From assembly GCF_003018115.1 (NCBI RefSeq), contig NZ_CP027457.1: 64,000 bases of DNA, one strand, 5' to 3'. Source of the stretch: Escherichia coli (GTDB lineage: Bacteria; Pseudomonadota; Gammaproteobacteria; Enterobacterales; Enterobacteriaceae). This document shows positions 57,101 through 60,100 of the stretch, piece after piece (the stretch's first letter is position 1; each line of letters opens with the position of its first letter). A program made the position numbers.

Positions 57101-60100
57101 GACGTAACGCGCAACGGCAGAGGCCTGAGCATGAACCTGCACCACGGAAGGCTCATAAATAACAACCGTGACGTCGCCAGGATTAATCAGCGTTTGTTTG
57201 ACGGATGTTTTACGCGAAATAACATCAATAATCAGGCTCATAATGGCATTCCTGATAAATGGCGCACATCCTTAGCGAGTCCATTTATCTAAATAAGACA
57301 AAGGTAATCACTTAACAACGAGGCATACCTGATATTAATAATGGCAGGATTATTTCAAGTCGGGTAAGTCGTTGTATAAGCCCTGTTTAATTCCCGCTAA
57401 TGGAATAAGGTTATTCACCGCAGCGGCATAATTTACGGCGGCGACCCAGCCATCATAATTGGCATTTATTTCAGCCGATTGCGCCTGAAAGACATCTTGC
57501 TCGACGGTTAATAGATCATTCAGACTGCGTTTACCCAATTTATATTCATTTTGGTACACATCTCGCGTTTTGTGCGCACTTTCGGATTGCGCTAAACCGG
57601 CTTCTTCGCGACCCCGTGCGCCGGTCCAGTTTGCATATGCCACAGACGCTCGTTGCAGCACATCCAGTTTTGCCTGTTCGACCTGCGAGGCAGAGATTTT
57701 TTGTTGCCCTTCGGCCTGTTGCACCTGGGCAGAAACCGCGCCGCCCTGATACAGCGGCGCGTTAACGTTCAGTTGTAGCTGATCATCCCAATACGAGCGG
57801 TCGCTGGTCTGGTAGCGCGTTTTACCCCCCTGAATACTGAGCGTTGGCCAGTATTGCGCTTTCGTTTTTTCCACGCCGTACTGTGCTGACTGGCGTAAGT
57901 TTTCTGCCGCCAGCACCAGCGGGATGGACTGGTAATCAATATTCTTCAGCGATACCGGCTGCTCGGCTAATTCAGCAGGTGGCGCGGCTATCGCCTCCGG
58001 CTGTACGCCAGTGAGCACCGCCAGTTGCGCTTTGGCGCTCGCCATCTGCGCCTGATATTGCTCCAGCGTTGAGCGCATTCCAGCAATACGCGTCTGGGCC
58101 TGTAATTCATCCGACGATGAGTTCAGGCCAGCGTTAGCGCGCAATGCCGCCATGTTGTAGACGTTTTCCAGCGAGTGAATATTGCGTTGAGCCGCATCGC
58201 ACAAAGCCTGATAACGACTGACTTCCATATAGGCAGTCGCCGTTTTCTCTGCAACATCGGTTAAGGTAGCCATCAATTTAAAGCGGTAGCTGTCACGGGC
58301 GGCAGTTTGCAGATTGATATCGTTGTTAGTTTTACCAAAGTCATACACCAGTTGTGTCAGGGTTATGCCATACGAAACGTTGTTATCAAGCCTGCCGCTG
58401 GAGTCCGTTTGTCGGGACGGCCCCGCGTTGCCGGTTAATCCAACGTGCGGATACCAGGCACTTTTGGCTTCATCAATTTGCGCTTCGCCAATGCCTATCT
58501 GCGCCGCCTGTTGAGTGACGTCGGGATTTCGCGCAAAGGCGCGTAATATACTTTCCTGTAAGGATAATTGGGCAACTGGCGTTACCGCTGGGGCGTTCGC
58601 CCATTGTGGCAGCGGTGCAGCAATTGCAGCTTCTCCCATCACCATAAAACTTATTAAAAAAATAAGTCCATTATTTTTACGGTTTTTAAACTGGAATCGC
58701 GCCATAGATAAGTCACTTCCTTCCAGGTCATTATTTTAACTGGTTTTTATAACCAGTCTCATTTTATTAAGAAGGGTAATAACTTGTGCATCTCTTTTGT
58801 CGATCATTGATATGGGCAAAGAAATGCAGCTAAAAAGCTTATACGTTATTTATTTAGAATACACTACGACTTTTAGATTACCATCATACACATTAAGAAT
58901 AATCCACGGTAATAAGTGATTAGCATCACAGATTTATCGCGTATATATCATTTTTTTGTGATTTATTTATTAAAGGAATAAGAAAGGTAATTTGAATTAA
59001 AGACAAAGGCGCAGTACAGGCAGTACTGCGCGCAGAGAGGTGTTATACGGTTTTATTGCGCTTCATGACCATTGCCACAATAAGGCTGAGTAAAATTGCA
59101 CCAATAATCCATATCAACGCACGGCTGCCCTGGGACCACAGGCTGTAGATAAAGCCAACGATCACCAACAACATCACCAACGTACCTACGATAAGAATCG
59201 GCAACGAGGCGTGAATATCATGTCGCAGGCGGATCGCCACCACAAACACCGCCAGATAGCAAATCAAAAAGGTGGCGCTGGCAACGCTGGCGAGTGAGCC
59301 TAAATTTAATGCCGCCGTCATCAGCATAATCAACACCACGACAATGATGTTGCCCCAGGTACTCTGCCGCCACAGGGATTTATTCATTAGCTTCGGCAGT
59401 TCGCGTTCGCTGCCCATGTTGTCCATGATGTTAAACACGGCGAACAGGTTCGCGTTGATGGCTGAAGCCGTCGCCAGTAAAGCGCCGATGACGACGATCA
59501 CATAACCCACATGCCCGAGCAGCGGAGAAGCTGCCTGCGCTACGGCGGTATCGGCATATTTTTCTAACTCTAATGCCGATACATCGCTAAGCAAAACCAG
59601 CGCCAGCGAGATATAAAGCAACGTGGTAACGCCAATCGCCACCAGAAACGCCCGTGGCATAATGACCTGCGGATCTTTCACTTTATCCGCCGCGTTCGCC
59701 ATCATGCCAAAGCCCGCATAGGCAAGGAAGGTTATCCCGATACAGGAGAAGAACGCACCGGAGCTGGGGGGCGCAGAGACGGAAATATGCGCCGGTTGCA
59801 GCGACCAGACACCGGCAATAATCAGCAATAACAGGATCATCATTTTAATGCCGACGAGGATCACTTCCAGCCGCCCTACCGCATGGTTGCTTAAGGAGTT
59901 GAAAAGCGTCATCACCGCAATGATCCCCAACGCGTAGAGCAAAATAAGGTGCTCCTCCTGGCTGCCTTCATGCAAAAACTGCACGGCATAAGCGCCAAAA
60001 GCACGGGCAACCATGGCGATGCTCACCGCCAGCGTCAACAGGTACAGCAACGAGAGCGCCAGCGAAAAGACGCCGTTGCCTAATCCGCGACGAAAAAAGT

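What the first reader, a model, noticed from the sequence alone, without database searches (positions are those of the whole stretch)
58706..59042. AT-rich control region upstream of the T1SS operon
The 337-bp gap between ybaT and the TolC-like gene is AT-rich and carries a small inverted repeat (ctggtt-N5-aaccag) about 40 bp upstream of the TolC-like start, plus a GC hairpin (gcgcagtac...gtactgcgc) just after ybaT that may be its terminator. This is the likely promoter/regulatory region for the whole adhesin operon.
Basis: inference. Interest (0 to 1): 0.3.

Follow-up and report, generated by a model that had tools for sequence, protein, structure and literature searches.

The report
Known promoter region of adhesin operon

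Summary
The gap 58706-59042 has 33% G+C against 55% for the window. It holds a perfect 9-5-9 GC hairpin (59009-59031) and a 7-5-7 inverted repeat (58739-58757).

The window is E. coli. The locus is O-island 28 (tolC28, siiEA/rtxA28-rtxB28, hlyB28, hlyD28). The gap is 99.2% identical and colinear with EHEC O157:H7, so published data transfer.
- Cappable-seq in EDL933 puts the main start site at window 58849, 144 nt before the ATG. It is induced in stationary phase. TATTCT sits exactly at -12..-7.
- Niu et al. 2025 showed promoter activity of the upstream fragment and direct RstA binding. Their RstA box, TAATTCAAATTACC, lies at 58986-58999.
- PhoB and RpoS dependence are also published.

The hairpin is a credible ybaT terminator. 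The small repeat lies inside the 5' leader (+93..+111), not in the promoter. It forms the tip of a predicted hairpin that pairs the ribosome-binding site; that role is inferred and weakly supported.

Two additions are new but modest. One is a lac-like CRP site at -73.5 with conserved half-sites and a variable spacer. The other is that E. coli K-12 lacks this locus through a deletion whose breakpoint lies inside the ybaT hairpin.

Verdict: already known, low interest.

The parts
59009..59031 (-). Stem-loop of the predicted ybaT intrinsic terminator: GCGCAGUAC-UGCCU-GUACUGCGC.
   Evidence: Perfect 9-bp arms. Terminator-like hit on the minus strand. RNA fold -16.6 kcal/mol, z = -4.68. Arms are 8/9 conserved in Escherichia sp. 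E1V33 and E. whittamii. Both arm substitutions give G.U pairs in the ybaT-sense RNA only, and the loop varies.
58997..59008 (-). U-rich tract after the hairpin (CUUUGUCUUUAA). It is interrupted in E. coli.
   Evidence: tail. The other Escherichia lineages have cleaner tracts: TTTTATTTTTTTA, TTTTTATTTTTA and TTTTGTTTTTA.
58986..58999 (-). Published RstA box TAATTCAAATTACC, at -294..-281 from the ATG and -150..-137 from the mapped start site.
   Evidence: Exact match at the position given by Niu et al. 2025, where an EMSA fragment lacking the box no longer bound RstA (PMC12758282; located). It is the least conserved block across Escherichia lineages: 9/19 columns identical, with a 5-nt indel. 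Two of six E. coli strains sampled have TAATTCAAATTTCC.
58958..58986 (-). Candidate Pho-box-like half-sites phased at 11 bp: CTTTCTT-ATTC-CTTTAAT-AAAT-AAATCAC. This is inferred.
   Evidence: Best sense-strand scores with my own Pho-box matrix: 7.9 and 5.3 bits against 11-28 for the training sites. The block is 24/29 conserved. PhoB control of ecs0540-0544 is reported by Yoshida et al. 2010, seen here only through citing papers.
58915..58930 (-). Candidate CRP site TGTGA-TGCTAA-TCACT, centred at -73.5 from the start site. This is inferred.
   Evidence: It is the only TGTGA-N6-TCAC in the 64-kb window; 0.33 are expected for the whole window. Both half-sites are 5/5 invariant in four Escherichia lineages, while the spacer is 2/6 conserved.
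58879..58887 (-). Weak -35 region. ATGGTA fits a 17-bp spacer. The ATGATG proposed by BPROM in the literature would need a 20-bp spacer.
   Evidence: Sequence. BPROM prediction quoted in PMC12758282. The block -40..-13 is 26/28 conserved.
58856..58861 (-). -10 hexamer TATTCT, at exactly -12..-7 from the mapped start site.
58849..58849 (-). Main transcription start site of tolC28, an A, giving a 144-nt 5' leader. It is transferred from EDL933 position 579751.
   Evidence: PMC10469882 suppl. 6 and 8. Found in 6 of 8 conditions. Signals were 0, 4.1, 0 and 2.4 in exponential phase and 64.7, 53.0, 31.3 and 9.2 in stationary phase. Coordinate transfer was checked: 3 mismatches and no indel in 371 nt.
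58831..58831 (-). Minor start site (EDL933 579769), seen in stationary M9 only. Its -10 is TATAAG at 58838-58843.
58788..58827 (-). Leader hairpin B: stem GCAUUUCUUU (58827-58818) pairs with AAAGAGAUGC (58797-58788) around a 20-nt loop.
   Evidence: Predicted in the single-sequence and alignment folds. The stems are essentially invariant, while the loop is unalignable between E. coli and E1V33 or E. whittamii.
58770..58785 (-). Anti-Shine-Dalgarno segment: AAGUUAUU (58785-58778), then AC, then CCUUCU (58775-58770).
   Evidence: Pairs with 58724-58710 in the predicted folds. The 91-nt fold is -21 kcal/mol, z = -2.86, with 1 of 200 shuffles as good. The segment is invariant across lineages, so there is no covariation to test.
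58739..58757 (-). It is the apical stem of the predicted hairpin that pairs the ribosome-binding site.
   Evidence: The three right-arm substitutions in other Escherichia lineages (A>G, C>U) keep G.U pairs in the sense RNA but break DNA symmetry. One E. coli strain has a pair-breaking G>A.
58716..58724 (-). Shine-Dalgarno-like GGAAGGAAG, 10 nt before the ATG.
   Evidence: Sequence. It is paired in the predicted folds and invariant.
58703..58705 (-). ATG start codon of the TolC-family outer-membrane gene (tolC28; CDS 57350-58705).
   Evidence: ORF list. RefSeq annotation of 99.9% identical genomes.
59043..60335 (-). ybaT (APC family permease), the upstream gene ended by the hairpin.

Best explanation
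The gap is a composite boundary and control region, read on the minus strand in this order.

(a) An intrinsic terminator closes the glsA-ybaT transcript. It is the hairpin at 59009-59031 followed by a U-tract.

(b) An AT-rich upstream regulatory stretch follows. It carries the published RstA box (58986-58999). It probably also carries PhoB-type half-sites (58958-58986) and a CRP site (58915-58930).

(c) A core promoter has a good -10 (TATTCT, 58856-58861) and a weak -35. It fires mainly in stationary phase from A58849. The operon is RpoS-dependent in a published microarray.

(d) A structured 144-nt leader follows.

Transcription from this promoter runs through tolC28, the giant adhesin gene, and the ABC and membrane-fusion genes.

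Shown by published experiments on the 99.2% identical orthologue: the start site, stationary-phase induction, promoter activity of the fragment, RstA binding, and RpoS and PhoB dependence.

Inferred here: terminator function, the CRP and Pho sites, and pairing of the ribosome-binding site.
For: Identity of the locus. The window is E. coli, with the gap flanked by ybaT and a TolC-family gene in 958 of 5426 complete genomes.

Transfer of published data. The gap is 99.2% identical to O157:H7. It is colinear with EDL933, with 3 mismatches and no indel in 371 nt.

Published experiments.
- EDL933 Cappable-seq start site 579751 equals window 58849. It is strong in all four stationary-phase conditions.
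- TATTCT lies exactly at -12..-7.
- Z0608 is 55-fold and Z0609 20-fold lower in an rpoS mutant.
- ECs0540 and ECs0541 rise 3.5 and 4.1 log2 on entry to stationary phase.
- lacZ fusion, ChIP-qPCR and EMSA support RstA control. The RstA box is at -294..-280 and is present unchanged at 58986-58999.
- PhoB control is cited.

Computed here.
- Terminator.
- No terminator-like site between tolC28 and siiEA.
- Conservation: -40..-13 is 26/28, the CRP half-sites are 10/10, and the anti-SD and SD blocks are at least 95% conserved.
- Leader folds: z about -2.9.
Against: - All experiments were done in EHEC O157:H7, not in this O169:H41-like strain.
- The mapped start site lies 137-150 bp downstream of the RstA box. 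That is unusually far for an OmpR-family activator, so RstA may act on another, unmapped promoter or by relieving silencing.
- No good Pho box sits at the -35 of the mapped promoter. The best matrix hits are weak.
- The CRP centre at -73.5 is about one base off the usual class I phasing (established knowledge, from memory).
- The U-tract of the terminator is interrupted in E. coli.
- RpoS dependence seen on microarrays could be partly read-through from glsA-ybaT, which is itself RpoS-dependent at 19- and 70-fold.
- The leader helices are invariant, so there is no covariation support: 0 compensatory pairs.
Confidence: 0.85

Rival explanations
1. The small inverted repeat ACTGGTT-N5-AACCAGT is a DNA operator for a dimeric transcription factor that controls the operon.
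For: It is a perfect 7-bp palindrome with 3 G/C per arm. Only 2% of shuffles reach that. A consensus scan places it in the 18-bp spacer of a promoter-like ATGAGA/TAAAAT pair.
Against: - It lies at +93..+111 from the mapped start site. No start site was detected downstream of it in 8 conditions.
- Any perfect repeat of 7 bp or more occurs in 16% of shuffles.
- Its right arm is the least conserved part of the proximal leader, at 4/7, while the flanks are 14/14 and 21/22.
- The substitutions destroy DNA symmetry but keep RNA wobble pairs.
- The half-sites resemble FadR-type CTGGT/ACCAG, but the spacing is 7 rather than 3 (from memory).
Confidence: 0.07
2. The operon has no meaningful promoter of its own and is expressed by read-through from the RpoS/GadX-controlled glsA-ybaT unit. 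On this view the hairpin is not an effective terminator.
For: ybaS and ybaT are RpoS-dependent like Z0608. The U-tract after the hairpin is interrupted.
Against: - Cappable-seq captures primary 5' ends and finds a strong start inside the gap.
- The isolated upstream fragment drives lacZ.
- The hairpin is very stable.
Confidence: 0.05
3. A second, distal promoter serves RstA and PhoB control, while the promoter at 58849 serves stationary phase. It would use a -10 around TATATA (58942-58947) and start near 58935-58937. It would be activated by OmpR-family regulators bound at 58958-58999.
For: - The RstA box and the best Pho-like half-sites adjoin each other with 11-bp phasing. They lie 10 bp upstream of a TATATA element.
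- The RstA box is too far (-143) from the mapped start for ordinary activation.
- The Cappable-seq conditions were phosphate-replete, so a PhoB promoter would be silent.
Against: - No start site was detected there in 8 conditions.
- The Pho matrix scores are weak.
- The RstA box is poorly conserved.
- The primary paper that mapped the PhoB promoter could not be read.
Confidence: 0.3

Closest known systems
tolC28 regulatory region of O-island 28 in EHEC O157:H7 EDL933 (Niu et al. 2025, PMC12758282; ecs0540 promoter of Yoshida et al. 2010)
   Same: Same locus and same flanking genes. It is 99.2% identical over the gap with no indels. The RstA box has the identical sequence and position, and the -10 and start-site context are the same.
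   Different: There are three base differences, at 58962, 58897 and 58761. Downstream, the adhesin gene is one intact 6925-codon ORF here, whereas it is split or a pseudogene in O157. No experiment has been done in this strain background.
asr promoter of E. coli (acid-shock gene controlled by both PhoB and RstA)
   Same: The same pair of OmpR-family regulators is reported to act. Pasr was the positive control for RstA binding in the O-island 28 study.
   Different: The RstA box here is a weak match to the classical RstA consensus TACATNTNGTTACA (7 of 12 defined positions; consensus from memory). It sits about 140 bp upstream of the mapped start site.
lac P1-type class I CRP-dependent promoters
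   Same: The core TGTGA-N6-TCACT is the same as in the lac CRP site (from memory). It lies upstream of a promoter with a weak -35.
   Different: The centre is at -73.5 rather than -61.5 or -72.5. CRP dependence is untested.
Leader hairpins that pair the Shine-Dalgarno sequence (translational repression elements, RNA thermometers)
   Same: A pyrimidine anti-SD (CCUUCU) is predicted to pair with GGAAGG. The structure has G.U pairs and internal loops.
   Different: There is no Rfam family match, no covariation, and no evidence of a temperature or ligand response.

Membership tests
Bacterial sigma-70-family promoter | Experimentally mapped primary 5' end within the region | tested here: met
   EDL933 Cappable-seq start site 579751 transfers to window 58849 through a colinear alignment with no indels. 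The measurement is in the orthologue, not in this strain.
Bacterial sigma-70-family promoter | -10 hexamer about 7 nt upstream of the start site | tested here: met
   TATTCT lies at -12..-7, matching TATAAT at 4/6 with A2 and T6 present.
Bacterial sigma-70-family promoter | -35 hexamer at 16-18 bp spacing | tested here: not met
   The best candidate is ATGGTA (3/6) at 17 bp. The consensus scan did not call this promoter. This fits an activator-dependent or sigma-S-dependent promoter.
Rho-independent (intrinsic) terminator | G+C-rich stem-loop directly followed by a U-tract, downstream of a stop codon | tested here: met
   The stem has 9 pairs (6 G-C), a 5-nt loop and tail CTTTGTCTTT, and starts 12 nt after the ybaT stop.
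Rho-independent (intrinsic) terminator | Transcript 3' ends at the U-tract | not testable with these tools
   No 3'-end data were found for a strain carrying the intact hairpin.
RstA-activated promoters | RstA box bound by RstA | tested here: met
   The published box is present unchanged at 58986-58999. Binding itself is taken from PMC12758282.
Pho regulon promoters | 18-bp Pho box (two CTGTCAT repeats 11 bp apart) about 10 bp upstream of the -10 | tested here: inconclusive
   No acceptable box sits at the -35 of the mapped promoter. The best hits are 7.9 and 5.3 bits at 58986-58958, against 11-28 bits for the training sites, which were recalled from memory.
CRP class I activated promoters | TGTGA-N6-TCACA core | tested here: met
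   TGTGATGCTAATCACT matches 9 of 10 core positions. It is unique in the window, and the half-sites are invariant with a variable spacer.
CRP class I activated promoters | Site centred near -61.5, -72.5, -82.5 or -92.5, and cAMP-CRP dependence | tested here: inconclusive
   The centre is at -73.5. CRP dependence cannot be tested with these tools.
Palindromic DNA operator (for the small inverted repeat) | Symmetric conservation of both half-sites, placed at or near the promoter | tested here: not met
   The right arm is 4/7 conserved, with changes that break symmetry. The repeat lies at +93..+111.
Leader RNA structure that pairs the ribosome-binding site | SD paired in a structure more stable than chance | tested here: met
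   GGAAGG pairs with CCUUCU. The 91-nt fold is -21 kcal/mol, z = -2.86, and the pairing also appears in the alignment consensus.
Leader RNA structure that pairs the ribosome-binding site | Compensatory base changes | tested here: inconclusive
   0 of 40 pairs show double changes, because the helices are invariant. Only wobble-compatible single changes occur, in the apical stem.
RfaH-dependent long operons (ops element) | GGCGGTAGnnTG in the leader | tested here: not met
   No match with up to 1 mismatch in 58706-58849.
Any Rfam RNA family | Covariance-model match | tested here: not met
   Only two chance-level hits (E = 1.7 and 6.5), both outside the gap.

The most novel reading that the evidence does not exclude
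The small inverted repeat may be the apex of a conserved leader hairpin. In that hairpin CCUUCU (58775-58770) masks the tolC28 Shine-Dalgarno sequence. This would give the giant-adhesin secretion operon a post-transcriptional gate, such as temperature, an sRNA or CsrA acting on the GGA-rich SD. That gate would sit on top of RpoS, RstA and PhoB control. A previously unreported class I CRP site at -73.5 would tie expression to carbon starvation.
Probability: 0.25. Interest if true: 0.3.

Novelty: already known. Interest (0 to 1): 0.15.

Why it matters
The region controls a type I secretion system and a roughly 7000-residue adhesin. That system is reported to be needed for early EHEC adherence and gut colonisation (PMC12758282). 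Knowing where transcription starts and which signals act there matters for understanding colonisation. Those signals are stationary phase/RpoS, RstA with Ca2+, and PhoB with phosphate.

For a genome scan the finding is routine. It is a correctly guessed promoter region of a locus that already has published start-site, reporter and binding data.

This re-analysis adds three things.
- It joins the published start site to the published RstA box, and shows they are about 140 bp apart.
- It gives two testable candidate elements: a CRP site and an anti-SD hairpin.
- It shows that "O-island 28" is missing from K-12 through a deletion that cut the ybaT terminator.

Tried and rejected
- Rfam scan of 57000-60500 at E up to 10 found nothing relevant.
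- The consensus promoter scan gave two hits, TGCACA/TAAAAT and ATGAGA/TAAAAT. Both lie inside the transcribed leader. Neither has a start site in 8 Cappable-seq conditions, so both were rejected as main promoters.
- No RfaH ops element lies in the leader.
- Footprinting within E. coli failed. Six strains are 98-100% identical, which is too little divergence.
- Footprinting across genera failed. Of 31 loci with a tolC28 relative, only the Escherichia loci have ybaT upstream. The one non-Escherichia upstream region read, Pseudocitrobacter faecalis, shows no recognisable similarity to the E. coli gap.
- The Pho-box matrix gave only weak hits.
- Yoshida et al. 2010 is not in the held library. A literature search for siiCA/siiDA returned mostly noise.
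- A helix pairing the SD with codons 4-6 (CCUGGAA/UUCCAG) appears in the single-sequence minimum-energy fold. It is broken in E1V33 and E. whittamii and was dropped.
- A copper or CueR link was considered because cueR follows the operon. No CueR-type dyad was seen on reading the gap sequence; this was not scanned formally. cueR has its own start site.
- A FadR-like reading of CTGGT/ACCAG was rejected on spacing (from memory).
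Full report
WHAT IS THERE

All genes around the finding are on the minus strand.
- glsA: 60338-61270
- ybaT: 59043-60335
- the 337-bp gap: 58706-59042
- a TolC-family gene: 57350-58705
- a 6925-codon adhesin gene: 36464-57241
- an ABC transporter gene: 34298-36460
- a membrane-fusion gene: 33126-34301
- cueR, whose ATG overlaps the membrane-fusion gene's stop codon

The gap has 32.6% G+C against 54.9% for the window. That is in the lowest 1.2% of 337-bp windows.

- GCGCAGTAC-N5-GTACTGCGC lies at 59009-59031.

Shuffling shows the 9-bp hairpin is unusual. A repeat that long occurs in 1.2% of shuffles. The 7-bp repeat is not unusual on its own. It is matched in 16% of shuffles, or in 2% if at least 3 G/C per arm are required.

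WHERE IT COMES FROM

The window is Escherichia coli, 99.9% identical to O169:H41 strains. RefSeq annotates the neighbours as ybaT, a TolC family outer membrane protein and the "BapA-related adhesin SiiEA".

Only 958 of 5426 complete E. coli genomes carry the gap. In those it is 97.9-100% identical.

The locus is "O-island 28" of EHEC O157:H7. The gene names are tolC28 (Z0608/ECs0540), rtxA28 and rtxB28, hlyB28 and hlyD28.

The O157:H7 gap differs from the window at 3 positions. It has no indel and the same 337-bp length. Published coordinates therefore transfer base for base.

WHAT IS ALREADY KNOWN ABOUT THIS REGION

(i) Start site. Zehentner et al. 2023 (PMC10469882) mapped primary 5' ends in EDL933 by Cappable-seq in eight conditions.
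- tolC28 has its main start at 579751. That is 144 nt before the ATG and equals window 58849.
- It was absent or weak in exponential phase, with signals 0, 4.1, 0 and 2.4.
- It was strong in stationary phase, with signals 64.7, 53.0, 31.3 and 9.2.
- A minor start at 579769 (window 58831) appeared in stationary M9 only.

(ii) RpoS. Dong and Schellhorn 2009 found Z0608 55-fold and Z0609 20-fold lower in an rpoS mutant.

(iii) Growth phase. Bergholz et al. 2007 saw ECs0540 and ECs0541 rise 3.5 and 4.1 log2 on entry to stationary phase.

(iv) RstA. Niu et al. 2025 (PMC12758282) reported the following.
- The tolC28 upstream fragment drives lacZ.
- All five genes fall 3-5-fold in a rstA mutant.
- RstA is enriched on the region in vivo and shifts it in vitro.
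- An EMSA fragment lacking the box TAATTCAAATTACC (-294 to -280) no longer bound RstA.
- Ca2+ acts through RstA.

That box is present unchanged at 58986-58999, which is -294..-281 from the ATG.

(v) PhoB. Yoshida et al. 2010 is cited as showing PhoB-dependent activation of ecs0540-0544 from a promoter upstream of ecs0540. I could not read that paper.

ANATOMY, COMBINING THESE DATA WITH THE SEQUENCE

Core promoter. The mapped start A58849 sits 7 nt after TATTCT (58861-58856), so the hexamer is at -12..-7.
- The -35 region is weak. ATGGTA fits a 17-bp spacer. The ATGATG picked by BPROM in the 2025 paper would need 20 bp.
- A good -10 with a poor -35, an A/T-rich stretch after the -10 and stationary-phase induction fit an RpoS-dependent or activator-dependent promoter.

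Position of the small repeat. The two promoter-like matches from the consensus scan lie inside the transcribed leader. Neither has a detected start site. The small inverted repeat is therefore at +93..+111. It is not a promoter element.

COMPARATIVE EVIDENCE

Within E. coli the region is too uniform to be informative.

A scan of species-representative genomes found three further Escherichia loci with ybaT upstream.
- Escherichia sp. E1V33
- E. whittamii
- an E. coli with a different deletion

Their alignment and block-wise identity give a footprint.

| Block | Columns identical in three lineages |
|---|---|
| -40..-13 | 26/28 |
| CRP-like half-sites TGTGA and TCACT | 5/5 each |
| 6-bp spacer between the half-sites | 2/6 |
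| Pho-like stretch 58958-58986 | 24/29 |
| Proximal leader | 90-100% |
| Published RstA box | 9/19, with a 5-nt indel |
| 20 nt at about 58798-58817 | unalignable |

CRP site. TGTGA-N6-TCAC occurs once in the whole 64-kb window, here, against 0.33 expected. Its centre is at -73.5. I read this as a candidate class I CRP site. That is an inference, and I found no report of it.

TERMINATOR

The hairpin folds at -16.6 kcal/mol, z = -4.68. It starts 12 nt after the ybaT stop and is followed by CUUUGUCUUU.

In the other lineages the tract is cleaner, for example UUUUAUUUUUUU. The two arm substitutions both give G.U pairs in the ybaT-sense RNA. They would be A-C mismatches on the other strand. This supports an RNA-level terminator for glsA-ybaT. 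Termination efficiency is untested.

LEADER

Three observations come from the folds.
- The 174-nt transcript start folds better than shuffles, with z = -2.87.
- The alignment consensus and the 91-nt fold (-21 kcal/mol, z = -2.86) agree on one extended hairpin.
- A second hairpin (58827-58818 with 58797-58788) has invariant stems around the unalignable loop.

The extended hairpin is built as follows.
- AAGUUAUU..CCUUCU (58785-58770) pairs with GGAAGG.AGUGACUU (58724-58710).
- This covers the Shine-Dalgarno-like GGAAGGAAG.

There is no covariation, because the helices do not vary. Masking of the ribosome-binding site is therefore a hypothesis.

The substitutions in the small repeat keep wobble pairs in the sense RNA and break DNA symmetry. 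This favours an RNA element over a protein operator, but only weakly. About one third of random transition sets would do the same, and one E. coli strain carries a pair-breaking change.

OPEN POINT

The RstA box is 137-150 bp upstream of the only mapped start. It adjoins the best, though weak, Pho-like half-sites, which are phased at 11 bp. A TATATA element follows 10 bp further on.

A second, distal promoter used under phosphate limitation or in DMEM is therefore possible. I give it a confidence of about 0.3. The Cappable-seq conditions were phosphate-replete.

OPERON EXTENT

No terminator-like site lies between tolC28 and the adhesin gene. No RfaH ops element lies in the leader. All five genes respond together to RstA.

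cueR is not dependent on this promoter. It has a start site in all eight conditions, 160 nt upstream of its ATG and inside hlyD28.

SIDE RESULT

The K-12 ybaT-cueR spacer aligns to the window up to 59015, inside the right arm of the ybaT hairpin. It aligns again from 33225, inside the membrane-fusion gene and 96 nt before cueR.

The same junction is present in 4458 of 5426 genomes. Those genomes include K-12, an O111:H8 strain and O25b:H4-ST131 strains.

The locus is therefore absent from K-12 through one deletion allele of about 25.8 kb, not through an insertion in EHEC. The deletion removed half of the ybaT terminator. It also removed the -160 cueR promoter.

VERDICT

The specific role hinted for the small repeat is not supported as a promoter element. 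The region is already characterised in the literature. Novelty: already known. Interest: low.

Noticed in passing
window 33225-59015 (breakpoints), compared with L002 3832-4001: E. coli K-12 lacks the whole secretion/adhesin operon through a deletion. Its ybaT-cueR spacer is the left half of the ybaT hairpin fused to the last ~96 nt of the membrane-fusion gene. The same junction is found in 4458 of 5426 complete genomes, and 958 keep the intact locus. 'O-island 28' is therefore an ancestral locus lost by one deletion allele, not an acquired island as the 2025 paper phrases it.
   Followed up: partly
window 33126-33129 and ~33289: The cueR ATG overlaps the stop codon of the membrane-fusion gene (ATGA). 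In EDL933 the cueR start site lies 160 nt upstream, inside that gene. In K-12 the leader is 19 nt, and the -160 position falls in the DNA that K-12 has deleted.
   Followed up: partly
window 36464-57241: The adhesin gene is one intact 6925-codon ORF here. In O157:H7 it is split into two ORFs (ECs_0541 and ECs_0542, the 'two RTX proteins' rtxA28 and rtxB28), and RefSeq flags it as a pseudogene with an internal stop.
   Followed up: no
window 30090-32720: Between cueR and ybbJ the window has DNA absent from K-12, where the two genes abut. It holds a 338-aa ORF with a YadA-like C-terminal anchor (annotated 'adhesin' in Sakai), a small lipoprotein gene, a further small ORF, a minus-strand ORF, and REP-like GC-rich repeats after ybbJ.
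   Followed up: no
L035 3740-4200: One E. coli assembly (SCPM-O-B-8794) carries a different deletion. It keeps the upstream region down to just after the start site (about window 58843) and joins it to the middle of tolC28.
   Followed up: no
window 58983 (+) and 58560 (+): EDL933 Cappable-seq lists weak antisense start sites. One maps next to the RstA box and reads back into the ybaT 3' end. The other maps inside tolC28. Each was seen in one condition.
   Followed up: no
L011 1304-3757: In Pseudocitrobacter faecalis the tolC28 homologue (about 75% amino-acid identity) is preceded by an 817-aa gene with an EAL-type DDFGTG motif. This suggests c-di-GMP control of the related adhesin system there. 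The upstream DNA shows no recognisable similarity to the E. coli gap.
   Followed up: no
window 58931-58940: GCGATAAATC, directly upstream of the CRP-like site, matches 8 of 10 positions of the H-NS high-affinity motif TCGATAAATT (motif recalled from memory). Together with 33% G+C, this makes H-NS silencing of the region plausible. This was not tested.
   Followed up: no
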